64,000 nt of DNA, taken from Antedon mediterranea (taxonomy: Eukaryota; Animalia; Echinodermata). Of this stretch, positions 42,300-64,000 are shown in pieces. Below the pieces are notes generated by a model, which saw only the letters and a program-made list of their open reading frames with translations, was not told the origin of the DNA and searched no databases. Location of the stretch: positions 33,415,648-33,479,647 of the forward strand of contig NC_092673.1 of assembly GCF_964355755.1 (NCBI RefSeq), given 5' to 3'. The translations under genes were made by a program, and so were the position numbers. Position 1 is the first letter of the stretch. Each line of letters begins with the position of its first letter.

Positions 42300-42850
42300 T
42301 TCAGTGGACCAAATTTAGCACCAGTGGAGCACAGTGATATAAAATAGAAATAAGTCACTAATTTTAATATCTTTTTGTATGTTAATACACTGTGCTCAAG
42401 TGTACCCAATTTGGAGCCAGTAGTGCATAGTGATATAAATAGAAACAAGTCATTTAATGTTAATATCTTTTCGTATGCTAGTACACTGTGCTCAAGTGGA
42501 CACAATTTGGCGCCAGTGGAGCACAGTGATATAGAATAGAAATAAGTCACTGAATTTTAATATCTGTTCGTATTTTAATACACTTTGCTCAATTGAACCC
42601 TATTAGGAGCCCAGTGATATAAAACAGAAATAAGTCACTGAATTTTAATATCTTTTCGTATTTTAATACACTGTGCTCAAGTTGACCCAATCTGGTACCA
42701 GGGAAGCACATTGATATAAAATAGAAATAAGTCACTGAATGTTAATATCTTTTCGTATTTTAAGACACTGTGCTCAAGTGGACCCAATTTGGCGTCAGTG
42801 GAGCACAGTGATATAAAATAGAAATAAGTCACTGAATTGTAATATCTTTA
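42300..42850 (+). repeat. About 97-bp tandem repeat, about 6 diverged copies
   Basis: Unit GTGGACCCAATTTGG..CAGTGGAGCACAGTGATATAAAATAGAAATAAGTCACTGAATTTTAATATCTTTTCGTATTTTAATACACTGTGCTCAA. Confidence 0.85.
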
Positions 42851-43689: not shown

Positions 43690-44536
43690 CTTTAATCTTT
43701 AGATTCGATTGTGAACGGTATATGTAATATGATGCATTTATTTGTAAATGTGTTCTTTCATATTAATTGGTCTGGTTTTATTATATATTAACCCACCATA
43801 TTATATTATGTTTTTTATTTACTAATTGTGTATACAATGACTGTAGCCAAATGATGTATATATTATTGGTGCTCTTTCTTTGGCTACGGTACGGTCGAGG
43901 CGGTCATTATAATGTGTGCGCATTATCCGCGTTCGTTTAAAAGGTGCGGACATTGACTATGTAGGCCAATTGAATGTGGATATCCGTAAGTTGATTGGTG
44001 GAATGTTTGTGAATATTTGAAGACGTTTGTCATGTGACACATCTTCATAACGAGGCTTTCATTCATAGGCGTATACGTACGCAGTGACGGTGTGCGTTTA
44101 TGCACATCAACAAGTGTAACGTACGGACATTGAATGTGTAGGCCGATCGGATTGGTTTGTGAATATTTTACTGTGTTTGTCATGTGACACGTCTTCATAA
44201 CCAGGCTGTCATCACAATGTGTACGCAATACATGTGAGAATGTGTGTATACGCTTAAACCTACTACATACAGAAAATGTGTAATATTTTATATTATACAA
44301 TTATTACAGGTTTCAGGTGATGTATTATTTCTTAGAATGACTTCCAAGGAATTGTAATAAAAGTTGTTACGAGATAATAAAGGATGAGAATTGATGAATT
44401 ATTATTTTAAAAGAATTTTTACATCGATTAAGCATATTTGAATACCTACCAGTATGGTACCATACATGTTCGACAATACAGTGTCACATATCTCTCTTTA
44501 CAAAAAAAAACAATATTCATTAAAAAGAAATATTCG

Positions 44537-44600
44537 TCGAGGTTCGAACCCCAGCCGATAGCACTCAAACCTGAGCATTACCCGTTACGCCACCAAGTAC
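44537..44600 (-). other. Degenerate tRNA-like Pol III head (A and B boxes)
   Basis: Minus strand TGGTGGCGTAACGGGTAATGC...GGGGTTCGAACCTCGAC. Confidence 0.5.
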
Positions 44601-44694
44601 ATGACTGAAAAGCTGATAATAGTCTATTTATACGTGTATTACGTAATTGATCCTTACGTCATAAATATCCTATTAACCTTGCTAAAACCAAAAT

Positions 44695-44960
44695 GATCAG
44701 TTAGCTCAGTCGTCTGAACGTCGTGTTAACAACACGTATGTCGTGGGTTCGATTCCCACGCTGGTCGGTGGAATAGAGTTAAGGCTATGCGAGCCACTGT
44801 GTTTGAGGTTCATAGCATTATACGTCCCCCTTTCCACCACACATCTTGAGAAGGCACTAGCAATGCATCTGGTAATGATGTGGTGGAAACGAACCCAAGG
44901 CTGCTGTAGAGGGCCTTAGTGCTGAGGCAAGGAGAGCACAATTTTTACTCTTTTTTTTTG
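44695..44960 (+). mobile_element. tRNA-Ile-like head (44695-44767) with about 190-bp body ending in oligo-T; probable SINE
   Basis: GATCAGTTAGCTCAGT...GTGGGTTCGATTCCCACGCTGGTC folds as a near-cloverleaf resembling tRNA-Ile(AAT), but has anticodon AAC and a damaged D-loop. No terminator directly after the head. Confidence 0.65.
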
Positions 44961-46814
44961 GCTTTCGCTACATGTATTTGATCTCGTAAATTTTATGTTT
45001 AGCGGCCTCAATTTTAATGTAAAAAAAGGAATTAATTATCTTCGTTACGCGTTACGTGTTGAGAAGAGAATGTATCTCTCATCATAGTCTGGTATGCCGT
45101 TCGTTGTTATAAAAAATGAGTGTGTGCAGGTGTAGTGGGAAAGATGGTATTGTTAGTCATTCGCGGTCAACGCGCCCCAATGTTAAATTTATATTTTGTT
45201 AATCAATGTTGCAACATTGGTAGCGAAATGTCCGATTCTTCATAGCAGTTGGTGTGTATGGCCGCACCGTCCCAGAATAAACATGTTTTAAACAGATAGT
45301 TTGTCTCCGATGGTTTTTGTATGGGGTTAATCATGGAGTTAACTCCATGGGTTAATGGAGAGTGAAATAAGATCAAATATAGAACATTTGCAAAGATGCC
45401 GATTTCCAGACCAATTCCGCCGCCGGGCTAGGCCATAGGCATATACGAAGTCGAGTTTTTAAAGTAGAAAACCCCACCTAAAATGTTGAAGTCGCATCTG
45501 GATAGTTGAAATTTTAACATTATCATAATTATCATAGGTGACTATGTATAGTAATAAGTATAAGTAAGTGCATTTCTGGGCTATATTTTCATTGCTCTGC
45601 CTCAACCATGAATGGGCTAGTACTGGAGACTTGTTATTTAATTAATTTTATATTTCAATTAATAGGTGCACTTTCCGGGGACAAGCTCATATATTGTACT
45701 GGTGAGTCTTATATAGTTTGTTTCATTCAAATTATGTAACGCTATTTTTTCGGGCGGGAACCTACTGTATACAGCTCTTTTTTTCAAAATTGTCTTTGCT
45801 CAGCCCCAAGCATGATGGGGTACTGAAGATTCTTATGCATGTTGTTTGAAAACATAAAAGATAAATTTGAATCAATATGAATGCCAGGATGTTTCTGTTT
45901 GTCAGGTTGTGATATGGGTATATACGAAACGATATTAAAAGTAGTGACTTTTATTTCTATTTTATATCACTGTGCTACCCTGGTGCTAAATTGGGTCCAC
46001 TTGAGCAGTTACCGTAGTACTATTTTTATTATTAAAGTTAATAAAGGCATAAATGGCGCTCCGTAGAGAAGTAGAGAATGCTCCAGTCGTCAGAATGACG
46101 CTCTGAATATACCTCCTGTAGGCCTACAAACGATTAAATCAACGCATATTACATTTTTGAAAGAGTTTTAGTAGTGCGCTTATAGTGGCTCTTCTTTAAG
46201 CAGTCAGGCAGCATCTATTTTAGGCTAACTTTCAGTTTCCACTTAAAACCGCTTCTCTTCCGAATTTATTCGTATGAAACCGACAGCGCATGTGTAAAGA
46301 ATTTCTTTTCTAATATAGGTTGCGGCAAACAGGAATACTACTCTGAACAACAATGGTCTAATTTAAAATTCAGCAAACCTTTTTATTTCAAATAATTCTA
46401 TAAGCAATCAATAATATAAAAAGCTAATTATTACGGTAGCTTTTAAAAAAATGTAAAATAATTACCACAGTGACGACGACCAAAGTGGTTTACAAAAACA
46501 AAAGTTATTTTAATTAACAATATACAAACATTTTTATAATTTCAACTAAATATTTTCTGCTATTAATTCCAGTTTAGGTAATTTTCTAATTACATAGTAC
46601 AACACTACCAAAAAGAAGTGTAACATAATTATATGGAATATACCACTGGAATTTGGGGTCGGGTTAGAGAGAATGAGCAGACAATTTTGTCACACTTCAT
46701 TGTCTGATCTTCTTTAATATCGAGTCCCTGCAGATTATGGTGTATACAATTAATAATAAAAACGTATATAAACGAAATAGTTATGTTATCATATCTTAAA
46801 ATATGAGGTACAGT

Positions 46815-47466
46815 AAATACAGAGAGGATTTAGTTATAGGCCTAGATATAGGCCTCAATACAGAGAGGATTTAGTTATAGGCCTAGATATAGGCCTAAAT
46901 ACAGAGAGGATTTAGTTATAGGCCTAGATATAGGCCTCAATACAGAGAGGATTTAGTTATAGGCCTAGATATAGGCCTCAATACAGAGAGGATTTAGTTA
47001 TAGGCATAGATATAGGCCTAAATACAGAGAGGATTTAGTTATAGGCCTAGATATAGGCCTAAATACAGAGAGGATTTAGTTATAGGCCTAGATATAGGCC
47101 TAAATACAGAGAGGATTTAGTTATAGGCCTAGATATAGGCCTAAATACAGAGAGGATTTAGTTATAGGCCTAGATATAGGCCTAAATACAGAGAGGATTT
47201 AGTTATAGGCCTAGATATAGGCCTAAATACAGAGAGGATTTAGTTATAGGCCTAGATATAGGCCTAAATACAGAGAGGATTTAGTTATAGGCATAGATAT
47301 AGGCCTAAATACAGAGAGGATTTAGTTATAGGCCTAGATATAGGCCTAAATACAGAGAGGATTTAGTTATAGGCCTAGATATAGGCCTAAATACAGAGAG
47401 GATTTAGTTATAGGCCTAGATATAGGCCTAAATACAGAGAGGATTTAGTTATAGGCCTAGATATAG
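46815..47466. repeat. 41-bp minisatellite, 16 near-identical copies
   Basis: Unit AATACAGAGAGGATTTAGTTATAGGCCTAGATATAGGCCTA, with only two variable positions. Confidence 0.97.
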
Positions 47467-47943
47467 ATGATGTACTTTCAATGGACTGGAAATATTACTA
47501 AGAAAAGTAGAATCTTCGTGTGTACGAGAGTTTCGATTATCTTGGTATATTACCATACCTGACGTGAATTTTCTAAACCAGCCCAGCCGTTATAAGCATT
47601 TTATAAAGCTTGGTTATCAATTGGACGCAACGCAACGGCGTAGGTACAACCGCAAGCAAGTTGACCAAGCACAAGTGACAGTTCGGATGATCCGCCGCGT
47701 CCTGATTGGTCAAATTACTTGCAGCGCGCTTGGTGCTTGTGTTGCGCTTCCAAGGACGAACCTAGCTTAATTTTAAACCCATCTCTCTTTTATTCAAGAC
47801 TGTTAGGCCCTATGCGTTTTTTATAATACTAAGATTAAGAAGAAAGATTTACCAAAATGAGATCATGGAATGGAGACGATTGAACATGAGAGGATTTGAG
47901 AAAAGCAGAAATTTGATTTAATTGTAATTAACACTGTAAAATA

Positions 47944-50900
47944 TTAAACTTCAGTATCTTCACCATCTGAATATTCTCGATTAAGAACTACGTGATCCTG
48001 ATTGTCACTTATTCCATTTTCTACGTTTCCATTTAATTCGCCAGCATCTTCTCCATTTTCCATAAACTTTAAACTGACAGATGATGACCTTTCCTTGACT
48101 TCCTGATCATATTCGTCTTCCTGAACTACCTCCTCTCCCTCGTCATAATCTTGCTTGCTGCTTTGATCGTCATCAAACTCTTCCATGTCGCCTATACCAT
48201 TCAATTGTTCCCAATCTTCTTCGCTTAACTTATTCGCTAAACTTCCTTCCTCGTGCAGTTCCCCATTATTATATTCTGCTTTAATAACCTCCTGTTGTAC
48301 AACGTCTTCTGAAATTACATCCGTCCCAACCGCGTCGCTAGCTGCGCGTTTAACGCTTTCTTCTCGTTTTCGTACAATCTCCTCAGCTTTCCTTTTTGAC
48401 GGTGTTCGCGTCAACGGTGAGCGTTCATGTTCCGGTTCTGGTTCGGACTCTGGGTCTGACTCGGGCTCTTCTTTAACATCTAATGATACGTTAACTTTGT
48501 TAGCAGGAACGTTCTTTTTATATTCACCCGGCATGTTTCCATTACCTATAGGCTTGTAATGCGCTACAATAACATATTTATTTTTGTTCCTCATTTTGGC
48601 TTTAGCGACTCCAAAGTCGGTGGAATTTTTCCAAACCATTTGTGTGAAGTGACTGGTATCTGTGGAACAAAAAAAAAGGCATGCATTAATATCAAATATT
48701 GTTGATTTATTAAATAAATAACCAAAGATGCCAATACAAGATTTTGTGAGATAGCTAGAAACTTGATATTTAGTGTCTTTAATGGGATAGAAAAAGAGAC
48801 AAAAACTGAAGTTTTAGGTTACATCATCCAAGATACGATTGTATTTTATTACACGATGAAGACTAGTCTAGGTTCCATACTTTTTTATATAACAAGATAA
48901 ATATTTTGGCAAACATGACGTTTCATACGTAAAATACTTTATCTCACGAAGAAGCGTGGGGCGTGCAAGTCTAGATATAGACGTTTAACCAATCAGAAAC
49001 AGAGCAGTCAAACAGCACCCGGATGTTAAATATTTTCCGCTCGTCTTTTTGAACGTGTAAGAAACATCAAAAAACGGGCAAAGAACTTAAACTTCTTTGG
49101 AAACATTGTGGAGAAACGAACAATAAAGAAAACAATTATGTTTTATATTGCAAATTTTACCTGGATTTTAAAACTACTTTTTACAAGAGAGATGTCTGTT
49201 ACATGGAGACTGCCACAGACATAGAATGAATGGTGAGTAGGCACTTCATTTTGTATTCAGAATGCCTATGTTAACACTATGGGATATGACCGGTTGGGCC
49301 GCCGACAAGTTGAGCCGCCGGTGATTTCTATGAAACGCCCAGTGCATGCGTCTTTTACGACATTTCGCGTAGTGATTAGGATGTTGTCCTAGCCTAGTAG
49401 CCTACACAAGTTCATGGTCTTGGTTTATTGGTCATGAAAATGAATAATATATAATTACATATTACAATTTACAACAAAGCAAAGGAAAGTAGTAATATTT
49501 AATAATTTAATTGTTTTAATCTTTCGAGGAAAAAATTCAGTGCACTCATAATTTTTCTCGCGTGTAGGCCTAGGCCTACTACCACGTAAAGCTTTACGTG
49601 GTATATATGTTATGCGCGATTTGAACGATTTGCGCAATTTGAAATTGCGCAAAAAAAATCCTTGCGCAATTTGAATTGAAACATGTGTTTCAAATTGCGC
49701 AAGCAACGTATTAAATTGCGCAAGTAATCTGCAAATTGCGCAAGGTTTTTCGACAGATTGTGAAATCATGCACACCCATATTTTTATAGTAATTTCTAAG
49801 AATGATTCAAAATTAAAGATAAATATCGCATTTCCTTATTTTAGTAGTGCAAATATTGTTATAAGTTAGCATACCGTCGAAGAACCGACGAAGGAAAACG
49901 AAGCGGTGGTGTTCCACCAGGCGGGCGCGGCGCGGGCTGCCGGCTATACTACTCTAGCCTAGCTAGGGTCTGGACTACTGATACTGACTAGGTTACATGG
50001 CCTAGCTTAAACTAATATTAAAAACTTAATTTTTACATTTATTTTGATTTATTTCAAGTTACAGTGATAATATTATTTAATTGTAATAATAAATGTTATG
50101 TATTTATTATACACATGTTATCTTCGCATTTATTATGTTTTATTTTGAGTTATTTAGTTTCCAATAAATTATTATAATACCCATTGTCTGGTAGAATTTT
50201 GTTGCGCAATTTGAAAATTTACAGTTCGTTTTCAAATTGCGCAAAGGTGTCATATTGCGCAAGAACTATCTTGCGCAATTTACAAATTGTGCAGCGCAAT
50301 TTAAAATTGCGCAAAGATTTTCTTGCGCAATTTGAAATTGCGCAAGTTGATTGCGCAATTTGAAATTGCGCAAAAAAATCCTTGCGCAATTTTAAATTGC
50401 GCAAGAATTCTTTGCGCAATTTTAAATTGCGCAAGAATTTTTTTGCGCAATTTCAAATTGCGCAAATCGTTCAAATCGCGCATAACATATAGTTAGTAGG
50501 CCTACACGCGAGAAAAATTAAGTCACGTTGTCTCTCAGGACTAATTAATAGAGTATTAACATTCTTCGAATGAGGTTAAATAAATACTATTTTTTATTTA
50601 CTAATCTTTTAATATAATATTTTATTGAATTTTACAATTTTAATACACAAAATATTTTACTAAAAAACGTGATTTTATGTAATTATTTTACCGAAAAATG
50701 GAGTAGGCCTAGCCTAGTTCATACAACTGCCGACTGCTGAGGGGCAACATGTTTACGTCATTTTTGGCTAAAAACGATCACTTTCGGTGATATATATTTT
50801 GGAATCTACAAGCAAGATTTTCATAATTATTTAAATATAATATTTAATAATGTATATACTAAAAACCATGATATATAAACTTTTGAATGTACATCGTTAT

Positions 50901-52344
50901 CCCTATATATAAATAGAACGAGCACCGGCGGAAAGTTAGCATTTGGCGTTCCATAGAAATAACGTTTTTCTGGCGGCGGCTCAAAATTGTCGGCGGCTCA
51001 ACTTGGCCTAATCCAAAACTATGTGACCGTGCCGAACATGTTGATGGCGTAGGCTAATTCGCTGACCTGACACCGGGTCAGACTACTTTAAGCATAGCCT
51101 ACATACACAGGGCCTAGAAACATATCCTAATTAATTACTGAGAATTTAATAGACCGCTCCTAAACTGCTGTCATTGGCGCTAATGACAAATAGTATATTT
51201 GAAAAGTACGTTTTAAGAAACCTAATAGGCCTAGCCTAGGCTAGGCCCTATTTTTGTACGTCAAAACAAATTTCATATCAGGCCTAGCTAGCCCAGGCCT
51301 AGGCTAATTCGTCTAACCTCGTTCAAATACTTACTATATTGCCACATAGGCATGTCAAACTTGTAGGCATCTACTTCTTCAAGCCACGATTCCACAACCT
51401 GACTTCCAGACACATTTTCTTTGTCTTCGGTTATCAAAATATTCTCACCATAAACTAATAATATACAAACATAAAAATAATACAATTATTAAAATCGATG
51501 TGTGGTGTTAAAAATGGCTTAATATTTGTTGTTTATTAATATAATTACAACCCAATGACGTTTCGATTAAATCTTTTTTTAACAATAAATTGTACTGGTG
51601 AAGGGGTAGTTTTGCCCGCTTGCTCTGTTAATTGTTCTTTGTTTTACGTTATCGTTTTGATTTAGCTTTTTGCTTATTTTATTTTGTACTCCATTGAGAT
51701 CCAGCCACGGATACGTACCCACACCATTATCAGTTTTCAATAATGTGCCTTTGGATTTAATAAATCGTAATCAATTAAATTAATTCATTATACATATCTG
51801 GTTAATACAGTAACTTAAACCACTGATAAGTTGTGATTAGGCCTACAGGTATTTTATTATCAGTCAATGAGTAGGTGTACTGTATAAAACTTAGATGATG
51901 AGGATTTAGCCAAAACTGATAGAGTAAGGTCTACCGCGGAATTAAAAACATGTTTGAAAGATAGTGTTCACAAACTTGTTAGAGCTGTGCATTATGCAGT
52001 ATTATGATTGATTTGTGGGAGCCAGTTAGTATTTGCCTCCAATAGAAACTAAGAAAACATCAAAGATAATGCAAAACTCTAAGTATAGTATAATAAGAAA
52101 CAAAAGTGAAAAGATTGCCAATATTAGGGTCATTCTTTGTCTTAAGTTTGATAGGGAAAATAATAGGTAAATAATATATAATCACCTCTATTTTCACTAT
52201 GTTGTAAATATCCTTTGTTTGCCAGTTTTTTTGCCCATTCTTTAGCAGTGGTGGCAGCGTCATCAGACCAGTTCATTTGTGGAATACCAAATTCCTCTCG
52301 CACTGTATTATGAGCCGTCAGACAGGCTGATTGAAACTTGTTGG
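47944..52344 (-). CDS. CAP/SCP domain exons (Golgi-associated plant pathogenesis-related protein 1-like) and acidic C-terminus
   Basis: FQSACLTAHNTVR..MNWS..AKEWAKKLA..LQHS / YGENI..VESWLEE..Y / SHFTQMVWKNSTDFGVA..VIVAHYKPIGN. The His-Glu-Glu-His tetrad is present and there is no signal peptide. Confidence 0.92.
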
Positions 52345-55300
52345 CTAAAATTAGAAAAATGAAGAGAAAAAATGTTGTAATTACAAACAGAAACTATTGG
52401 TTGTTAGGGAGTTTTAGGGACAGTCCTTTGGTTGTTATGGAATTTAGGGACAGTCCTTCTTCTGATTAGCGATCACTTTCAGAACAAACGTTTTACACTT
52501 TGTAGATGGTTTAGTATTCTTTGAGTACTTTTGAACGACCTTTATAGCGACCACTTTTATTTATTTTCCTTAAATTATTTCACTTAATAAATAATAAGTC
52601 TTTCCTTTCCATTAAATTGAATTTATTTGGATAGGATATTTGTTTAATTTTAAGGGTAGCCCAAGTGTGAATGGTGAATACGGCCACTACTGTCTTTAAA
52701 TTTCGAATTTAAATTACTTTAGGAAAGCTTTTTTCTAACTAGCGATCACTTTCGGAACGAATGTTCTAAACCTCTTCGAGAGTTTAGTCTCTACTTGTTG
52801 AATAATCTTTTTCTAATTAGCGACCAGTTTTTTTTCTCGGATATTTCGCGTGTCAAGTTTAACGTCGGATTTCACCTGCTCAGAACCGTGGTATTATGAA
52901 CGCCTTGGTTTGGAGAGAATAATGCAAATTACTCAAGACTATTAGGAATAAACCACTTCATATACATGATGCATTCGTTGTTATTTATTTAATCATAGTA
53001 GCAATCAACTGATTTTACTACTGTTGTAATTTGATTGATATAGCAAATTAACATCATGATTTCTCTGACAATTTTATCAATATACTGTACATAGCAGCAC
53101 GTAATCATGTAGAAAGCTCAGGCGTCGGAGGAGCAATTTCATATTCGAGTATTATTATCCTTCATAATTTGGTCTCCACATGTTTACCATTTGCTTATTA
53201 ATTTTACAAACGATACGCAGTTAATGGTTCATAAAGCTGGAAATAGGTATAATTGCATTGGTGTACTAGTTATTAACGGTTCAAACTTCAGTCAGCCGCG
53301 GTAACAGCAGGTTGATGGGCCTTGGTCACGAAACAGTGTAGAACGTAGTTAAATCCCTATTTAGGCCTAACTTTGTAAAAAAAAAAAGATAGGTATAAAT
53401 AATATAAAGCCTACGACAAAAGTGCAAATGTGATAATCAAACGTATATTTTATATAGACAATTGTACATTTTTTTAACATATAGGTATGGTCGCCCTTGT
53501 TACAATAAACTACCGGTAATTCAATCTCAGCTTGATATACATACACACACATACTTCGGATCGAAATGCAAAGAACAAAATGTTTTAATAATTTTGCTTG
53601 TAACTGTAGCTTGTTTAATAAAGATATATGTAGCTTTGTATAAACAGATAATACAGTAAACATCTTACATTTAAATTACATTGTACAACATTCCTCCTTT
53701 GTTCAACAGTAAATTAACATAAAAACAGAACTTACTGTACAAGTAAATGCAAAGCTATATAGCTGATTATTATTATGGTCATTATGGACATGCTTGATAT
53801 TACCAACACCTTACAGTACATTACTGATAAATACACCCAATGGTATAATACCATTTAGTCAGCCTTAAGCAGTAGCCTACACTCAAAGTACACCAGACTC
53901 ATTACATTAATATACACATACTAGACAACCAACATCAGTGACGTCACGAAGGATACGCAGCCGATGCGCGCGCATGACGTTGAAATCTGCGCGTGCGTTA
54001 ACTGTATGTCCCACATTTTTTCACTGACGATTTGCATACATACCGTATAGATAATAGGATTATTAGAAAACATATTGTTTGTATACAATAATTACTCCAT
54101 AAAAACGTTTATCGCCGTGTTAAAATGCATAAACATAAATTATCTAAATGGAGCTATTATTTACGTATGCATATGCAAAATAACTGTATAACTATAATCT
54201 TGTTTTTAAGAGAAAAGGATGCATGTGCTGTGCTTTCAAAGTGTGTGTATTCATTTAGCCCTAGAATACAAGCAGTTTGAAAATAAGTTCTTACGCTTTG
54301 GTGTGTTATCCTCTGTTTCTGGAGGCTGGAAAATAATATAAATATATTTATTATGAAAATATTAATAGCCTATTAAAACCAGTAGTATACTCTGATTTTC
54401 TAATATCATAATTTATATTCATAAATTGCGAAATCGAACAATTAATGTTGTTCTCCAAAATGCAAAAACAGAGAACCATTCCTTTGGTTCGGTGGACACT
54501 GCTATTGAGAGGACATTTTCCCGTGGAACGAATGAGAGGAAATAAGTGTTTTGAACTCTATGGCCAATCCTTATTCAGAGAACACCGCATTATAAAGGGT
54601 TATCAAACGAAAAATACATAAAATATTATTCTGTTGGTAGATCATTGTTTAATATCTCATATGATTTTAACTGCCAGCATCTTTCCCAAATATATTTTAA
54701 CATGTTTAGTGTTGTGAATTGTAAGGCCGGTTAATATGTATTATTCTGTTTCAAACGTGTGTAAAGAGTTGTTAAATAGCAGTTGATTGTTGAGTAGTCT
54801 GTTGCCGTAACATTGTGTGTTTTCACACGCCATAGTGCCAAAAAAGTCAATGGATTATGGTCCTGATCTCAATTAATTGTCCTTCATTGTCTTCTACGTT
54901 TTATTAATTAATAGTGTTTGTTTTTGTAATTGTGGTCGGGAAGATATTTAAACACCAATTATATAGGAGTTATTTAAGTTTTAAGGACGATAATGAGGCC
55001 TGAAGAGAGATGATAATGAGAATGTTAGGAAAGTGGAAGTTTCTAAACGAATTTTTTATTGGAAAAGAACTTATTTTCCAAAATGAAATATGATTAAAAT
55101 AAATAATTATTTACAGACCTACTTTATACAGTAAATCCGATATTATAATTCTGTAGGCCTACCTGAGGAATGTCCTCGGGAAATACAAATATTGTAGGAA
55201 TAGCAGTATGTTTAAGACGAGTTTTTCCTTTATACATTTCAAAATTATCTGGAGTAAAATGTCTGGAGCACAACAGTGTCCTTGCTTTTGGCATCCACTT

Positions 55301-56014
55301 GCCCACATTCATGTTCATTACCCATATCCACAGTCTGTTTGAGTCTCGGTGGGGAAATCTAAAAAGACGATCATTCATACATTTCAGCATTATATAATAT
55401 CCTGTTAATCGTTGGCGGTAAACGCTTAACAGACTCTTGCAGAACTAAGATTGTTTGGCCAAAGGAACCGTAGTCTATTATTTTATTTAAGTCAAACCTT
55501 GTGAGCTCAGACCTACTCTAGGCCTACCTTATATTTGAATAAAATGTATAGGATACCGTATTCTAACAAGAAGCAACTAGCCCTTTTAAAATGGTTTATA
55601 TATACGTACTGTCATAGCTTACTCATGTCACCTAGGCAAAGACAATCACAACAGCTATTCGGTAACATTAGACTTTCTACCACAAAATTAACAGCTTTGT
55701 TAGTTTAGTTTTAGTATTATACAGTACATTGTTGTCGGTTGGTTATTTTCCTTTTTTTTAAATTAATGACGAATTCACATTCTATATAAACTCCATGACT
55801 ATCAGTTAAAGATATTTCTATCTCCCATCAGTGTTGAAGTTAGCCCAGACAACTATCAGACATTTGTATTTTATAGATCTAAACACAATCGTTACATTGT
55901 GCAATGTGAAATTAGATGAAAGACGGTGCCTTACCTGTGGAACGTAATTCCTTTCTCTCTAGGTATAGTCTTATCATGGTATTTACAACCCTGAGCTGAA
56001 CACTGTAATGGCAT
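47944..56014 (-). CDS. THAP zinc finger + CAP (GAPR-1/GLIPR2-like) domain + acidic tail protein, predicted 433 aa, 6 exons
   Basis: Exons 56014-55935, 55358-55163, 54325-54295, 52344-52186, 51454-51335, 48659-47944. All GT-AG, phases 2/0/1/1/1 consistent, 1302 nt with no internal stop. Confidence 0.72.
49604..50491. mobile_element. Non-autonomous element with long TIRs built from TTGCGCAA repeats
   Basis: TATATGTTATGCGCGATTTGAACGATTTGCGCAATTTGAAATTGCGCAAAAAAA at left and its reverse complement ending at 50491. About 6 TTGCGCAA palindromes on the left and about 15 on the right. Confidence 0.85.
55163..56014 (-). CDS. THAP-type C2CH zinc finger exons
   Basis: MPLQCSAQGC...GITFH|RFPHRDSNRLWIWV...WMPKARTLLCSRHFTPDNF...RLKHTAIPTIF. 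All four Zn ligands, the invariant P/W/F/P and the AVPTIF box are present. Confidence 0.92.
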
Positions 56015-59000
56015 TTGGCTGCAAGATGATGTTGATAGCTTCAGACTTTAAACTGACAATACGGTTTCAATCTATCTTCTCAATCGCCGTCAAGCGTTTT
56101 TAGACATACATCCGTTTAATGGTACCACTTTACACATGTACCATCACAGTCGATAATAGTTGTTGAATTTAAGGTGATGTATTCTGCAAATGCGTGACTT
56201 ACCATGGCGGTTACACAACTGGATATAATCCAAATGGACACTATTATATAAACATTCGAACGTTACTAATATCAAATGTTCATTTGCATTTTATTCACCA
56301 TTGGTTTTCAAACAGATCAGTCGCGTCTCCGTCCGTCTGTACGCACTAATAATATCGCATTTGTTAAAATAAGCCTTTTAATTACAGGTCAGCGAATCAA
56401 ACAATATAGCCAACTTTAATCAATCGCACTTCGGTAATCAATATTTTACAGTAAGCATAAAGGAGGCCATATCGTTAGATCATCTTCAGCATTGATATTC
56501 ATATATACATTAGGCCTATGATAGTCATACATTCAATGTATCAGACCCGAAATAACATTCGTTCGCATGGGAGCAAATTTAATCGTCCCCTGTAAGAGTA
56601 CAATTGCAATGAGATAACATTGTTTTGCGGCATGTTCACACACGAGTAAATTAAATACCGTGATATGCAGCTCTAAACGCTATATACGCACATTGAATGC
56701 GGTGCACATTAGATCAATTCTCCACAATTTTTCTATCGAACTTAGCACCTTGATGCAAATATACATAACGATCGTTCTCGTGTGAAAGAACCGTTAAACA
56801 TTGACAAATATAGTTGAAAATTGCTCCAGTGGGAACCAAGCAAGTGAATGTGTTGGACCTGCAGTAAACTGTTTTATTACATTGTGATTATATAGCAATT
56901 TTAGACTAACGATGCGTGTTAATTGTAAAGTGCAATTTAGGCCATTGGCTAGCGATAGGTATGTTTCAGTGTCTATCCCGGGAATATGCATTTCCCTTTT
57001 GTATACAGTTTTTAAAGTAATTTTTTTGTGTAATTTGTATGGACGCACCATCTACGCATGTGTGCCACTGTTAAAAAAGTGTTGTTCCAAATAAACATTA
57101 TGTTATACATTGACAGTTGCTTCAGGTTGCCAGTCTTATTAATAGTTTGGACATGAATTTCCATTATGACGACGCGTGTTTGTTGTCAATATCGCAGATT
57201 TCCCCATACATACATTTTACATACCTTATTTATTTCAGCACATGGCGGCAGGTTTAGTTTCATTCTTTTAACTGATATGAGTTTGTGATAGGCTTATGTG
57301 TATAGTTAGATGGATGTGTTGTGTGCGAATGGGTATTTAGCTATGATGGGTACTGATATGCATGTTGTTGTTAATATCACACCATCAGATATCGTATATA
57401 ATTTAGTCTTCATCATTTTTACACTATTATTTTTTATTAACTAGTGTCTCTATTATAATTAAACTTCATTGTGACTTAGCTAGCGTGTAATATTGCGTAA
57501 AAATCCCTGTTTGTTAATCTGAAACTTCGACCCAGGACTATGGGGCGCCATAAGCAGCAAATGATGTGTATAAGCCTTGTATTTAAAACGAATAATGTGT
57601 GCTACATCAAATAGGCTGTGGAATGTGTAAATGACATGGTAGGCCTAGGTCCCAAGTCTCTATAATTGTTGCTAATTTTGTTATTAGGCCTACTGTAGTA
57701 GGCATACTGTACAGTACGGTATTCATTTTATCATGTGCGCAAATAGTCGGGCATTTTGATTTTAGTCTGTAAGCTAATGTTTCAGCTCAAGTGTTATGGA
57801 CCCTCTGGGAGAACAGTCTTAAATGATATGATTGATTATGATTAAATTATCTTTTACCAATATTAACTTGAATCGTCGTCTAGAACCATGGACCTATAAT
57901 ACTGTAGGTCCATGCTAGAAACTAGACTAGTAATTGGGTACAACAACCGTACAAGCTAGGTTACTGTACATAAGTGTGTGATATGCGTAGTTAACTAATA
58001 ACAGTCCCTGTCATGACGTGCTTGCATCTATAGTTTGTAAAAAATCAAATCTATTTCCATATTACATTAAAGATAACAGAATACATTACGAGTGACAGTA
58101 TAATTAATATACGCAATCATTAGCACAATCCAACACGATCGAACATAATGATTTACGTATTCTGTCGTGTCTACAATTAGAAACAAATCCAAAAGGGCTC
58201 TTTTAAAATCCTTGCCATCGTCCGTACGTGCAAATAGACCACATTCCGTCTATTTTGAGTACATACACGTTGCTCTAATATATAACACCTTTAATCCCCC
58301 TTTCAAAATAACATCAAATCTAAATGCACATGACAGGTGTGATCTATATTAAACATCGTATAGAACAGAAGCTATATATTTTATGAATACGTCAAGGAAT
58401 TTTATTAACTTAAAAACAAAAATGGAAATTTTAATTTTTGTGTTAATCGTTATAGTAGAATTAGAAAATTAGAATACATTTATAAATAAAAATTTTCAAT
58501 AATTGTTACTATACTTTTTTTCATTTTGAAATTGTCATCTCCTCCAACAGCTTAAAAGGAGTGATTTATTTTTACTATTTTAACCTATAATAATACAATA
58601 GGCCTACAAAATATACATCACATGATAATACCATCACTTCTCTACTGTACTGTATCTCCACCTATACTGTATGGCTTGTATTTGTTCATATCATAGGTAA
58701 ATTATGTAATACAATGTCACTTGTATCACATATGCAGCCTGTATTATGTTATGGTTAGGGATAGGTTAGGCTTATTACATATCATACATGCGTCACATGT
58801 GATACATTATGTGATACTGTGTTTACAGGATTTGCCTATGATACTCTGTACAAATGGATACAGTACTGATAGTTGAATAAAGTTTACAGAAAAGGAGTGG
58901 CAGTCAAGAGTTAATCTTTCCTTACATTCATTCTAGGCCTACGTGCTGTGTCAGTGACACCAGAGTCCCATAATGATGCTTCAGTTGTAGTTGTCATAGC

Positions 59001-60178
59001 AACATGACAATGCACTCTACAACATATAGATTACATTATGGCAATAGATGAATATTTCTCTTGTAAAACTTATGATTTATATTTGTAATGTCTTATTACG
59101 TTTAACACATTTTGTGGAGTATATGCGGTGAATAATTTGTAGTTATATGTCCGATGGCAGTGTTCTTCCGTAAAGTTAATTTGTTTGTACTAATCGGCAG
59201 TGTAGCGTAGCACAATTCGCGTACAAAAAACTAAACTACCACACATTTATAAAATAAAATGCAGTAGGCCTAGCCTTCAAAACCATGTTTCAGACATTAG
59301 ATTGATTATCAATTATTGCTAATCAAACGTTTAAAATGGAACTTTTCCATGTAACACACGGTCATACAGTACTTTAGCTTTCTTTAGCAGATATAGTGGC
59401 ATTTTAGTACGTAGGCCTAGCCGCCTATTATCTTAAATAGTAATAGGATCATACATGGTACTGAGAGTAGTAGACCGTTTAGTAGAATTGTATCCCACAT
59501 ACGTACATAGGCCTACGATGTGTCTATTTAAAAGATTTCAGAGAAAAGATTATAAAAGACAACTGTTGCATGTCATGACCTCTCACTTTATTTGAACACT
59601 TGTAAGACAGACAAGTACGTGATTAAACATTTTAATTGTACTTCATATTTCCTGAAATACTAATATCATAGACCAGGACTATTGGCTTACCAGCTGTACA
59701 GGTCTACTGTAACTGTGTTTACGCTTAGAGATAATATATTCACTAGGCCTATAGTATAATTATTATCTATGGTAGACTAATAAATAGTGTCTACATGTAT
59801 ATAACAACTCCTGACGTTTTAAAAACTATAAGTTCATACTTCCTATTTAATGGTCTTTTAAAGTTGGATCACTATAGAAATCCTTATTTAAAATAAGTGT
59901 ACCGTGTGTAAGAACAGTTAGCATTGGTCTTGAAATCAAAGACACTTGTCTGATTGTGTTGGTCTAACTCCAATTAAAAACTGGCTCCACATCCATTCAT
60001 TGGGAATTGTACTCTGTTAGTCTTTAATTATGTAAATTTACAGAGAAAATATTGATAACCTGGCAGAGATATGTAATTTCATGGTTGATTAAGCCACAGA
60101 GAAACTACACTACCGTTCTTTGCCATGTAGCTTAACCATGTGGAAATAGTAATGTATTAAAAGTTATCTGCGCCTTAC

Positions 60179-60330
60179 CTGGCATTTTGGCCACTTTGAG
60201 ATATGTATATCCACAAGTGAAAAAGCTTCAACTATCTGTGTGTTGTAGAAGTGTCCAAGAAACTTGTTTTCTGTAATTTTCCGTACAGTAGTAACGTTTC
60301 GAAACAGTAGTAGTATTGCTAGGTTTTATA
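60179..60330 (-). promoter_or_regulatory. Candidate distal promoter and first exon (ATG CCA G) of the CAP gene
   Basis: Minus-strand TATAAAA at 60324-60330, then gccaaaATGCCAG|GTAAGG (ATG at 60185). Phase 1 matches the acceptor at 52344. Confidence 0.55.
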
Positions 60331-61506
60331 TGTGCTGGTAGCTGATGTCCCTGGTGTCTGATTTGCTGTTTGTCGTGTTAAGTCCAAAGTCGACTAGTCA
60401 TGACTAATCACAAACTTACACCACAATGTACTCTTGCCGAATATAATAATAGAACAGGTAAAAGGCTATATAGAATACAATACGTTTGTTAGGTTGGTAG
60501 ATACCTGCCAAGGTTAAAGACCGGTGCTTAGTTTCTCGTAGTATTTTCAAAAGGCCTTTTTATAAAGGTTTTGTTTAGTTTGTAAGGTAAAAGAAACTAC
60601 TTTCTGAATAAAGGATCTGAATTGAAAGCAAATACGTCACGCTTCGGTAGCTTGATATGTCACAGTGGTTGCATCACAAACACTGTCGTATAGACTTATT
60701 TGCTATTTTTAATATAGGTCTACTTTGCGATTAGGGCATTTTTGAAAACAATATATGAGCAGTATTTCCTTGTTCATGCTTAATCCCGTACTTTTTGAAA
60801 ATGTATCATATTATAGGCCTATGCAAATTAATTTTGACATTCCTATTATAATATAATATTGTTGTATAACGATCCTTCATTAATTAGCAGTAGGCCGATT
60901 AAACTATTTTTGAAAAATGAGCCTTATTATGTATTAACAATTTTAAGTCACATTCAACAGAATACAGTCATGGGCGTTCCATACCTTCGTTTTATTAGAT
61001 TTGAAAAATCTAATTAAATTAAAAAAGTTATTTTGTCTTTATGGGGTACTTGTATGTAGTATCAATATTATGGTTTTTAAGATTCCTAAATTCTATAGCG
61101 TAGCAGTTCCTCTCTTCCAGCCACACATCCACCACAAGCACCTACTCGACCACCCTTTTAACTCAATGTGGGCTAGGGTGGCTGCATCCCAATGTGTTAT
61201 AAGCTGTATTTCGTAACTATAATACAAATGGACGATTGGAAAATGCGCGTGTATAATAAATATTCAGACAATTTTCATATTCAAGTCATTTGTGGAATTT
61301 CACCTCATCTAATTTGTCCTATATTTTTATCGAGCAGTTTAAGTAATGGTAATTTGTGGTTAACACAATTTTTGATGCGATATAAATTACGAAAAATATC
61401 GCCATCATTCCACTATTTGTTCGATTCAATGGTAGGCCAATTTAAATTATCTTTATACTTATATTAAGCATATCATAGCTTATCTTTGATGATTCTGTCT
61501 GGTTTA

Positions 61507-61645
61507 AGCTCTGTATACACTACGGTATCAAACTAGTTTGACAAAAACAATGTGTGATGTACCCAAATATGGCAGTGATATGCCCACATATGGATGGTAG
61601 TTAGGCCTATATGACATTTTGTTTGATAGTGTAGACAGAGATTTA
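61507..61645. mobile_element. MITE, same family as 19477-19637 (diverged)
   Basis: AGCTCTGTATACACTA...GTTTGATAGTGTAGACAGAG. Confidence 0.7.
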
Positions 61646-61833
61646 GAGGGTTCTGCTAAGCACTGTATCCCATTTTAGCAGACATTTAATCATCGTATCT
61701 CATCACAATCATCATAATCATCATAATCATTATAACATCAACAGTAACACTTATTTGAACATTATTATATGATAATAATAATAATAATTACATTAAAAAA
61801 AGACCACACTGATCCAAGGTTTATATTCTTTTA

Positions 61834-62163
61834 ATTACTAAACATGAACAAATAAATTGGTGAATATCACCTACCCACTTCAGGGTGCATTACTAAACAT
61901 GAACAAATACATTGGTGAATATCACCTACCCACTTCAGGGTGCATTACAAAACATGAACAAATAAATTGGTGAATATCACCTACCCACTTCAGGGTGCAT
62001 TACAAAACATGAACAAATAAATTGGTGAATATCACCTACCCACTTCAGGGTGCATTACAAAACATGAACAAATAAATTGGTGAATATCACCTACCCACTT
62101 CAGGGTGCATTACAAAACATGAACAAATACATTGGTGAATATCACCTACCCACTTCAGGGTGC
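61834..62163. repeat. 55-bp minisatellite, 6 copies
   Basis: Unit ATTACAAAACATGAACAAATAAATTGGTGAATATCACCTACCCACTTCAGGGTGC, head to tail with no spacers. Confidence 0.97.
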
Positions 62164-63229
62164 GTTACATTGTAATGTATACAATAAATATCCTTTAAAA
62201 TAAAGGTACTATGGTGTTTTTTCCTTTAAAGTTCAATAAATAATCCTACTCAACTATTAATAATACTGTATACGAAAATAGTCATGTGAACCTTACAGTT
62301 ATACCTTCAAGATGAGTCAATCATGAAGTTTAGGGCTACGGGGTCCGGTTGGGTGACTCGAGACTCACTCTCGTCGTCTCCAAATTACAACGGGACTTTT
62401 TTTTTTATAACGACGGAAAGCGCCACGGAAGGCGGCAAAAGCTCCCGTTCACATTAGGAGTGATAAGTTACATATGTGCCGTCTTCTAATAACGTTAAAA
62501 TGACTGAAGTAGATATTATTCTTAAATACCTCTACAAAATTTAAATTTCGTTAGCTTAAATAAAAGGCCTACTATTGAAATATTTAATTTTTAAAAAGTA
62601 ATATTTCACTAGACTAAACTGTAGTTTGTGGACACTTGATATGATTGACAGGGCATTGGATAAAATGATTTTTTCACGAATACATCCGTTTCTCCCGTCC
62701 TGATGTGTAAAGTCCCAAAATGACTGCGTAAAGTCCTTGAACAAGGTAACGATCAGCACTATTGCCGCAGAGGGGAAATCACCAAGGAGAATTTACCTTT
62801 TTTGTTTTATTAACTTCATGAAATATTATTAAGGTGAACGCTGCTTACAACAATCGCAAGTGAATATAACTTTAATAACCTAATTACGAATCTTACAGAA
62901 ACGGAAGGTTGGAATCCGTTTTCGTTATCGTATTTTGTGCGTTTTCGAATTTCTTTTGACATCTATTTTTGTTTACGTGTTTTTCTCTAATTTATAAAAA
63001 TAAAGTTATTGAAAGTACAGTACTGTCTTTATACTAATTTATAATAAACTTAATTACTTCAATAAATAGCATTAACTATTATAAATATAAATACAAGAAT
63101 GAATATTTTTTTTAACTACACATTTGAATTAATAAATATGATTAAATATACAAAAGGTTTGGTTATAACGAATGGATGATTACGAGGTACAATTGGAACA
63201 TTGACCCACTACCAAAAGAGGCACCGTTT

Positions 63230-63334
63230 GGAACATTGTCCCGTACCAAAATGGCGGAACATCTTCCCGTACCAAAATGGCGGAACATTGTCCAGTACCA
63301 AAATGGCGGAACATTGTCCCGTACCAAAATGGCG
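63230..63334. repeat. 26-bp tandem repeat, 4 copies plus a degenerate copy near 63194
   Basis: Unit GGAACATTGTCCCGTACCAAAATGGC. Confidence 0.9.
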
Positions 63335-64000
63335 CTTACGTTATGAGGTGTGTATGAATCGTATGACGTCATCCTTCATTTGACTGATGTAGTCCGTAAA
63401 ATTCTGCAGAATACCCAACGTTAAACGATTGATGATAACAGAGTTGACCAAGGGTGTTAGATGAACAGAAGAGGGTGTTGTTGAAGAAGCCAGTGTCGAT
63501 GCATTTAGCGACGTAAGCTAAAAAGATGGAAAAGAAATAACTACGTCAAAACATGCGTACACACAAATCCGTGCCGTCATAGCATGCTTTTCAGCGACTA
63601 CAAAAAGTTGTGTGCATGCGCAGTTAGGCATATTTCATGTTAAAATGTAAACGTATACAAAATTGACGACATCAATATTGTTTTAATAGTTGTAAATGCT
63701 TAATAGGCTCTAATTTTATTCGTTTAAAATCGGTACGCTTGATAACCGTGAAAATCAGTACTAACTACGTTCACACTTTGTCTCAGTTCGAGTACGGTGG
63801 CCGGATAACTTAAATATAATGTAAATAATAGTATCCAGGAGGAATATGAAATTTGCACACTAACGCATTCCATATTGCGTACAAAACGCACGTGTGTGAT
63901 TCAAAACGTAACGCTGCCTGAAGTTTCTGGCCACCGGACCAAAACCAGGCTCATTTTGAACGTAGCCTTAAACAAAGATGGCCGCCGGCCGTACTTACCA

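What the first reader, a model, noticed from the sequence alone, without database searches (positions are those of the whole stretch)
47944..56014. THAP zinc finger fused in frame to a GAPR-1/GLIPR2-type CAP domain
Seen: two THAP exons (intact C2CH ligands, AIPTIF box) link through a 31-nt micro-exon (PPETEDNTPK, 54325-54295) to three CAP exons. The micro-exon converts phase 0 to phase 1 exactly as required, giving a stop-free 433-aa protein: THAP-CAP-acidic tail. No transposase catalytic region or TIRs accompany the THAP. Known: THAP is a sequence-specific DNA-binding domain shared with P-element transposases, and the phase-2 intron at FH(R/K)|FP is typical of host THAP genes such as THAP1. 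GAPR-1/GLIPR2 is a cytosolic lipid-, metal- and Beclin1-binding CAP protein. I know of no described THAP+CAP architecture. Inference: exon capture produced a DNA-binding protein with a CAP ligand or oligomerisation module, possibly a lipid- or metal-responsive transcription regulator.
Basis: partly seen in the sequence, partly recalled or inferred. Interest (0 to 1): 0.88.

Follow-up and report, generated by a model that had tools for sequence, protein, structure and literature searches.

The report
THAP finger nested in CAP gene
In a feather star, a DNA-binding-type THAP zinc-finger unit sits inside the first intron of a GAPR-1-like CAP gene that has its own start; the two likely also splice into one fusion protein, predicted in two crinoid species, but that joining splice was not seen in the one RNA run examined.

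Summary
The six-exon, stop-free 433-aa THAP-CAP-acidic tail frame is real and equals RefSeq XP_071948442.1 of Antedon mediterranea. A 467-aa THAP+CAP model exists in a second crinoid, Anneissia japonica. In RNA contigs (run X1) the CAP gene has its own first exon at 60326-60179, spliced to 52344 (333 aa, no THAP). The THAP exons lie on the same strand inside that 7.8-kb intron. Four of the five fusion junctions are RNA-supported. The decisive one, 54295->52344, is not: the THAP contig reads through that weak donor (116-aa THAP-only product). Contigs drop rare joints, so this is not disproof. For the fusion: two species' models, linkers differing by three codons and both ending PK|P, and an intact THAP 70% identical. 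The closest stand-alone CAP (brittle star) lacks THAP. No other THAP+CAP protein was found, nor any paper describing one. Best reading: a crinoid alternative-splicing capture of a THAP domain that coexists with the parental CAP transcript (0.55). Main rival: two nested genes merged by leaky splicing or annotation (0.3). Metal or lipid sensing has no support; one metal-site His is Arg in Anneissia.

The parts
60179..60326 (-). Own first exon of the CAP gene: 5' UTR plus ATG at 60185 (Met-Pro and one base), phase-1 donor CAG|GTAAGG; spliced to 52344 it gives a 333-aa CAP + acidic tail protein without THAP
   Evidence: X1 contig positions 1-148 lie here with 0 differences; joint 60179->52344 skips 7834 nt with GT..AG ends; ORF and upstream in-frame stop
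55935..56014 (-). THAP coding exon A (ATG at 56014; C5, C10), phase-2 donor. The X1 contig extends 5' to 56488, but that stretch holds 13 upstream ATGs, so the true start is unknown
   Evidence: joint 55935->55358
55163..55358 (-). THAP coding exon B (C57, H60, AIPTIF), phase-0 donor
   Evidence: Pfam PF05485; both flanking joints in X1
54295..54325 (-). 31-nt linker piece. Acceptor shown. The donor AGC|GTAAGA at 54294 is weak (rank 40 of 467 GTs in the intron) and is the unproven fusion donor
   Evidence: acceptor: joint 55163->54325; donor only in the RefSeq protein; scores
53761..54294 (-). Read-through beyond the donor: stop ending at 54251 (116-aa THAP-only product, PKRK at the donor), then non-coding sequence to the contig end at 53761; terminal exon or retained intron
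   Evidence: X1 contig piece 53761-54325 unbroken; translation
52186..52344 (-). CAP exon 2 (shared acceptor, phase 1); first helices and His151
   Evidence: X1 contig positions 149-307; its loose end matches the start of the next exon; Pfam PF00188
51335..51454 (-). CAP exon 3 (GEN and W-x-x-E motifs)
   Evidence: loose-end letters; contig arithmetic 148+159+120 = 427, last exon starting at position 428
47944..48659 (-). CAP exon 4: end of the CAP domain plus a 183-aa acidic tail (31% D+E) with conserved TPSKRK and C-terminal DTEV; 3' UTR runs on past 47600
   Evidence: low pLDDT over most of the tail

Best explanation
The locus is a GAPR-1-like CAP gene with its own first exon, and a spliced, intact THAP zinc-finger unit lies on the same strand inside its first intron; a weak donor in the third THAP exon likely also splices to CAP exon 2, so that feather stars likely make a THAP-CAP-acidic-tail fusion beside the CAP-only protein. 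Shown: the CAP-only transcript, the spliced THAP exons, read-through of the donor in one run, and the open fusion frame. Inferred: a THAP gene or transposon remnant landed in intron 1 after crinoids and brittle stars split. The Arg-Lys codons (CGT AAG) of its post-THAP basic motif supplied a phase-1 donor matching the phase-1 acceptor, and the junction has been kept since Antedon and Anneissia diverged. The fusion would be the less abundant form. Predicted working: THAP binds DNA; the conserved KRK motif in the tail would serve nuclear import; the CAP fold would act as an oligomerisation or partner-binding module in place of the coiled coil of most THAP proteins; the acidic disordered tail would recruit cofactors. 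Donor use versus read-through would set the ratio of fusion to THAP-only protein.
For: Open 433-aa frame, identical to RefSeq XP_071948442.1. Anneissia LOC117120299 has the same order, with two accessions for one protein. The linkers differ by exactly three residues, are only 4 of 10 identical, and both end PK|P at the junction. THAP core 57 of 81 identical with all zinc ligands and AIPTIF, close to CAP (114 of 148) and above the tail (86 of 183). tblastn with the Anneissia protein does not find the 31-nt exon in the window, so the Antedon model probably did not place it by protein likeness alone (inference). Four of five junctions are in RNA. The crinoid CAPs group with a 172-aa stand-alone brittle star CAP at 96/92 support, consistent with THAP added on the crinoid side. 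Logan contigs are simplified by SPAdes-like heuristics and reported only above 150 bp (10.1101/2024.07.30.605881, passages). A short, rarer joint into a deep contig could therefore be removed (inference). Coexisting fusion and parental transcripts are the usual state of young domain captures in tetrapods (10.1101/2020.05.07.082677, passages).
Against: The 54295->52344 joint is absent from the 4 joints listed for X1, and both contigs pass unbroken through its two ends. The donor is the weakest of the six scored, 0.2 against 1.7-8.7. Both fusion proteins are automated gene models. The later one may have been guided by the earlier. The same collection lacks the CAP-only form that X1 shows, so these models are demonstrably incomplete. 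Conservation of PK at the donor could reflect a PKRK basic motif of a THAP-only protein. The Anneissia exon boundaries and DNA could not be seen. Only one RNA run of one study was available. DNA binding, localisation and oligomerisation were not tested. Only one outgroup orthologue was seen, so loss of THAP elsewhere is not excluded.
Confidence: 0.55

Rival explanations
1. Two separate genes: a short THAP-only gene (116 aa, terminal exon from 54325) nested in intron 1 of a CAP gene. The fusion is an annotation merge or low-level leaky splicing without function.
For: This is literally what the X1 contigs show: one CAP contig from 60326 and one THAP contig 56488-53761 with two introns removed and no joint between them. 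Weak donor. Single-domain THAP genes are the commonest class in a sea cucumber, 37 of 51 (PMC13228809, passages). THAP conservation is explained equally well.
Against: Two species' models use an equivalent junction with a frame-preserving linker difference. The read-through tail carries 2 substitutions in 44 nt in X1, one of them Arg to Met, whereas 0 of the 12 located substitutions fall in 307 nt of THAP coding sequence (weak, as 2 further substitutions are not located). No AATAAA lies near the contig end at 53761; the nearest ATTAAA is at 53619. Patchy intronic cover at depth about 4-7 abuts both contig ends, so the read-through may be unspliced precursor.
Confidence: 0.3
2. The THAP exons are a cassette of the CAP promoter: exon 1 splices to an acceptor just upstream of the THAP ATG, then through the 31-nt exon to CAP exon 2. 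The exon-1 ATG becomes a short upstream frame, so inclusion switches the product from CAP-only to fusion, or lowers output.
For: AG acceptors lie 4-64 nt upstream of the THAP ATG and none gives an open in-frame extension. The 474-nt 5' flank of the THAP contig has 13 ATGs and looks intronic. Anneissia has two accessions for one protein.
Against: No 60179->THAP joint among the 4 listed; the THAP contig runs unbroken to 56488.
Confidence: 0.1
3. The THAP exons are a decaying P-element or Harbinger-type transposon fragment whose frame with CAP is accidental.
For: THAP domains are often transposon-linked in echinoderms (PMC13228809, passages); the intron position fits an insertion.
Against: Present in two genera with 70% identity and every signature residue intact; spliced in RNA; no transposase remnant, TIR or 8-bp duplication found.
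Confidence: 0.05

Closest known systems
GAPR-1/GLIPR2 (PDB 1SMB, 4AIW) and invertebrate 'GAPR-1-like/ectin-like' CAP proteins, e.g. Amphiura filiformis XP_072015667.1
   Same: Best PDB match by sequence (E 5.6e-19) and by fold (TMt 0.88, rmsd 1.4); single CAP domain, no signal peptide, no cysteine-rich tail; Antedon keeps His151 and His199, which align with GAPR-1 His54 and His103.
   Different: No Gly2 at either start; 183-aa acidic tail absent from the 172-aa brittle star protein; N-terminal THAP in the fusion model; His103-equivalent is Arg in Anneissia. Orthology to human GLIPR2 was not tested (no human row in the tree).
Host THAP proteins (THAP1 PDB 2JTG/2KO0, THAP2 PDB 2D8R)
   Same: N-terminal C2CH finger with P, W, F, P and an AVPTIF-type box; matches at E 5e-11 to 1e-9.
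   Different: No [DE]HxY HCF-1 motif (pattern recalled). The only long helix after the CAP is at 285-304. A CAP domain as partner is not among the echinoderm THAP classes in the passages read (transposase, zinc fingers, LdhA, C-type lectin; PMC13228809).
Host-transposase fusion genes (KRABINER, SETMAR, PGBD3-CSB; Cosby et al., 10.1101/2020.05.07.082677)
   Same: DNA-binding domain of a transposase-related family on separate exons inside a host intron; parental transcript coexists.
   Different: Here the DNA-binding domain is N-terminal and replaces the host's tiny first exon; the host domain is a CAP fold, not a chromatin domain; no cognate transposon is traceable; the word THAP does not occur in that preprint's main text.
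C. elegans CTBP-1 (THAP fused to a CtBP corepressor)
   Same: THAP added at the N-terminus of an older host domain (seen only as a cited title; details recalled).
   Different: CtBP was already a transcriptional corepressor; for a CAP domain I know of no transcriptional role (recalled; none seen in the listings).

Membership tests
THAP domain | C2CH motif Cys-X2-4-Cys-X35-50-Cys-X2-His (10.1101/2021.02.01.429122) | tested here: met
   C5-X4-C10-X46-C57-X2-H60 in both crinoid proteins
THAP domain | Invariant P, W, F, P and C-terminal AVPTIF box | tested here: met
   P29, W39 (assigned by eye; W37 also present), F61, AIPTIF 79-84 in both; Pfam profile 1-87 of 87 matched. The Arg reported as conserved in human THAPs seems absent (by eye)
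THAP domain | beta-alpha-beta fold | tested here: inconclusive
   AlphaFold2 with few THAP rows: helix 30-42 and short strands, block pLDDT 52-83; no THAP structure among the listed Foldseek rows, which are all CAP
THAP domain | [quoted passage not shown] | not testable with these tools
   needs a binding assay
GAPR-1/GLIPR2 subfamily of CAP proteins | Single CAP fold without signal peptide or cysteine-rich C-terminal domain | tested here: met
   signal peptide judged by eye from the N-termini
GAPR-1/GLIPR2 subfamily of CAP proteins | N-terminal Gly2 for myristoylation (recalled; GLIPR2 as a myristoylated substrate seen in a listing) | tested here: not met
   residue 2 is Pro in the CAP-only and in the fusion form
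GAPR-1/GLIPR2 subfamily of CAP proteins | Metal-site histidines His54 and His103 (PMC7554809) | tested here: inconclusive
   both present in Antedon (H151, H199); the second is Arg in Anneissia
GAPR-1/GLIPR2 subfamily of CAP proteins | Orthology to vertebrate GLIPR2; Beclin 1 binding | not tested
   tree of the 40 best CAP domains had no vertebrate reference row
P-element/THAP9 transposon | Transposase catalytic region behind THAP | tested here: not met
   0 of 78 stop-free pieces in 52345-60178 match a transposase family
P-element/THAP9 transposon | Terminal inverted repeats with 8-bp target duplication (PMC7776569) | tested here: not met
   0 of 26 exact 10-mer inverted pairs flanking THAP carry a matching 8-mer; no convincing pair among the 25 longest of 200. 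Old repeats could have decayed
Host-transposase fusion by alternative splicing | Captured domain on exons distinct from host exons, inside a host gene | tested here: met
Host-transposase fusion by alternative splicing | Fusion transcript exists beside the parental transcript | tested here: inconclusive
   parental form shown, fusion joint not listed; fusion only as gene models
Host-transposase fusion by alternative splicing | Captured exon and splice site traceable to a transposon family | tested here: not met

The most novel reading that the evidence does not exclude
Feather stars evolved a new transcription factor by splicing a nested THAP finger onto a CAP protein. It would be the first CAP-superfamily domain brought to DNA, acting as the oligomerisation or small-ligand module of a THAP-CAP-acidic activator. 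One locus would switch among CAP-only, THAP-only and fusion products through promoter choice and a weak donor.
Probability: 0.2. Interest if true: 0.8.

Novelty: new variant of a known kind. Interest (0 to 1): 0.5.

Why it matters
If the fusion is real and selected, it is a lineage-restricted domain capture caught with the parental transcript still in use, and it joins a DNA-binding finger to a fold for which I found no transcriptional role. CAP domains still lack an agreed general biochemical function (recalled); a CAP tethered to DNA would make its partners and ligands testable with reporter assays. If the fusion is not real, the case shows how same-strand nested genes create false domain architectures in two RefSeq annotations while the shown CAP-only form is missing from the protein collection.

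Tried and rejected
No whole genome was held, so copy number and other THAP loci were not checked. The run search listed no holder on record as RNA; X1 was judged RNA from its GT-AG joints. All laid runs were contigs, so no read counts, starts, ends or strand were available; contig depths (188.5 and 17.4) are not used to rank genes. The 60179 joint has no DNA control, because DNA runs were laid only on 47600-56600. A first idea that the CAP gene starts near 53960 (motifs TGCGCGCGCA and TGACGTCA; candidate ATG exon 53854-53815) was rejected: the CAP contig's 5' 148 nt map to 60326-60179. Assembly error was rejected for 51672-56600, where DNA contigs of one sample run on in overlapping pieces. 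The search for shorter relatives gave 1 CAP-only hit of 8 candidates and no THAP-only crinoid protein. The polymorphism test is weak: Fisher p 0.04 holds only if 2 unlocated substitutions are non-coding. Three look-ups of earlier findings returned nothing. Rfam on 44000-64000 gave only a tRNA. Literature: 'THAP domain'+'CAP domain' 1 paper, on a mosquito promoter, listing only; PF05485+PF00188 0 papers; Anneissia+THAP 1 paper, with no CAP, SCP or GLIPR term; nothing relevant; PMC12062965 has no THAP or CAP term. Supplements were not read, and InterPro/CDART could not be queried; a THAP+CAP row may stand there, since the RefSeq proteins are public.
Full report
Observation. With boundaries fixed at 56014-55935, 55358-55163, 54325-54295, 52344-52186, 51454-51335 and 48659-47944 (minus strand) they give 433 codons and one stop. 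Pfam finds a complete THAP domain at residues 5-84 and a complete CAP domain at 111-230. The same 433 residues are in the protein collection as XP_071948442.1, an uncharacterized protein of the feather star Antedon mediterranea, a cluster of one member.

RNA evidence. The run search listed 5 holders, none on record as RNA. Run X1 behaves as RNA: its contigs skip GT-AG introns at exon edges, whereas X2, X4 and X5 (one sample) run through the same places as DNA. Laid alone on 52120-61000, X1 gives 4 joints. Three are introns: 60179->52344 (7834 nt), 55935->55358 and 55163->54325; the fourth, at 58666-58784, has non-splice ends. Two contigs tell the story. A 1646-nt contig begins at 60326, uses a 148-nt exon ending at 60179, and continues through the three CAP exons: the loose end at 52186 matches the start of the next exon, and the last exon starts at contig position 428 = 148+159+120+1. 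That first exon has an ATG at 60185, seven bases before a strong donor, with an upstream in-frame stop. The product is 333 aa, CAP plus tail, with no THAP. A 1321-nt contig covers 56488-55935, 55358-55163 and 54325-53761. It uses the micro-exon acceptor but runs through the donor at 54294, which gives a 116-aa THAP-only frame. So the THAP exons lie on the same strand inside intron 1 of a CAP gene with its own start. Four of the five junctions of the fusion model are supported; the one that makes the fusion is not listed.

How much that absence weighs. The tool states that contigs show presence, not absence. Logan contigs come from Minia3 with SPAdes-like graph simplification, and only contigs over 150 bp are reported (10.1101/2024.07.30.605881, passages). 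A junction path of some 60 letters joining a shallow contig to a deep one is the kind of link such cleaning can remove, after which the THAP exons would merge with whatever flanks them (my inference, not tested). Some features fit that. Patchy intronic contigs of depth about 4-7 abut both ends of the THAP contig. The 5' flank holds 13 ATGs, and no AATAAA lies near 53761. Against it, none of the four inner intron edges of the THAP unit extended the contig, and the donor AGC|GTAAGA is the weakest of six scored, rank 40 of 467 GTs in the intron (generic recalled matrix). One run from one study cannot settle this.

Comparative evidence. Residues 1-255 found 2 of 218 candidates of 238-758 aa: the query and Anneissia japonica LOC117120299, 467 aa, also THAP+CAP, with two accessions for one sequence. 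Identity is 57 of 81 in the THAP core, 4 of 10 in the linker, 114 of 148 in CAP and 86 of 183 in the tail. The Anneissia linker is three residues longer, and both end PK|P before the CAP, which fits a homologous 3n+1 exon with the same donor. I could not see the Anneissia DNA. The donor is made of the codons CGT AAG of a read-through PKRK motif. This suggests how the donor arose, and also offers an alternative reason for the conserved PK. The two models need not be independent, though tblastn with the Anneissia protein does not find the 31-nt exon. They are also incomplete: the CAP-only form shown by X1 was not found for either species in length ranges that would include it. In the 50%-identity library 8488 proteins matched at E up to 0.001. 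Of the best 150 shown (down to 100 bits), 149 were not the query; 3 of these had THAP and none had both domains. Weaker-scoring fusions could lie below the cut. The best stand-alone CAP is a 172-aa brittle star protein. It groups with the two crinoid CAPs at 96/92 in a tree of the 40 best-scoring CAP domains, one per protein (other proteins and domains left out; midpoint root). It has neither THAP nor acidic tail.

Anatomy. THAP meets the published sequence signature. No transposase, TIR or target duplication was found in the intron. In X1, 0 of 12 located substitutions fall in 307 coding bases of THAP and 2 fall in the 44-base read-through tail; 2 more are unlocated, so this is weak. The CAP domain folds confidently (block pLDDT 81-97) and matches GAPR-1 best. 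THAP is modelled at 52-83 and most of the tail is below 50. Antedon keeps both histidines of the GAPR-1 metal site (PMC7554809, passage), but Anneissia has Arg at the second, so metal sensing is not a shared property of the fusion. The tail is 31% acidic and keeps TPSKRK and a C-terminal DTEV in both species; reading these as a nuclear import signal and a PDZ ligand rests on recalled motifs.

Mechanism. Shown: a CAP-only transcript, a spliced THAP unit in its first intron, read-through of the donor in one run, and an open fusion frame modelled in two genera. Inferred (0.55): the weak donor is also used, giving a conserved, probably less abundant THAP-CAP-tail isoform that binds DNA through THAP, with CAP as an oligomerisation or partner module. 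Most human THAP proteins dimerise through a coiled coil (PMC13631171, passages). Rivals: two nested genes merged by leak or annotation (0.3), a cassette from the CAP promoter (0.1), a decayed transposon (0.05).

Comparison and novelty. The route resembles transposase capture by alternative splicing, where young fusions coexist with the parental transcript (10.1101/2020.05.07.082677, passages), but no source transposon is traceable and the order is reversed. THAP joins varied partners in echinoderms (PMC13228809, passages; PMC10027918, passages), so a new partner is a new variant of a known kind. No description of THAP+CAP turned up; the library lacks most subscription journals and supplements were not read. 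The architecture is already present, unnamed, in RefSeq.

Noticed in passing
window 60179-60326 (-) and protein collection: The CAP-only 333-aa form shown by X1 was not found in the protein collection for either crinoid; the RefSeq models appear to miss this first exon.
   Followed up: partly
window 60185-60171 and 56014-55927 (-): The CAP first exon and the first THAP coding exon both start Met-Pro after CCAAA-like context, and both end in the donor CAG|GTAAGGC. Chance or shared origin is unknown.
   Followed up: no
window 53939-53974: TGACGTCA and TGCGCGCGCA (CRE- and NRF1-like; labels recalled) lie side by side in the read-through stretch; the second occurs once in the window. Not the CAP start seen in X1; unexplained.
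   Followed up: partly
window 49306-51005: Nested inverted-repeat elements in the last CAP intron (arms near 51005/49306, 50520/49549, 50491/49604) with summed DNA contig depth in the thousands or more; likely nested MITE-like repeats.
   Followed up: partly
P0100 and P0126: Two 864-875-aa representatives combine two THAP domains, integrase H2C2 zinc-binding stretches and a C-terminal D-Tyr-tRNA deacylase domain: another THAP fusion to a host enzyme; source not looked up.
   Followed up: no
window about 16298-28772 (+): Multi-exon gene with an N-terminal ubiquitin domain (Pfam) and long S/T/P/Q-rich exons; resembles BAG6 (recalled, not tested).
   Followed up: no
window 20920-21963 (+) and 22271-24202 (-): Two reverse-transcriptase frames (RVT_1) facing each other, apparently inside an intron of the BAG6-like gene.
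   Followed up: no
window 32783-34189 (-): Single-exon 468-codon frame of a sodium/bile acid symporter family protein (PF01758).
   Followed up: no
window 44694-44768 (+): tRNA-Val(AAC) gene or tRNA-derived repeat.
   Followed up: no
window 46814-47466, 61834-62169, 63230-63334, 42303-42849: Tandem arrays: 41 nt x 15.9 (98% matches) just 3' of the CAP gene, 55 nt x 6.1, 26 nt x 4, and 97 nt x 5.8.
   Followed up: no
alignment A2: Several invertebrate relatives in the same CAP clade have Tyr at the His54-equivalent and Arg or Asn at the His103-equivalent, so the metal site is often degenerate in this group.
   Followed up: partly
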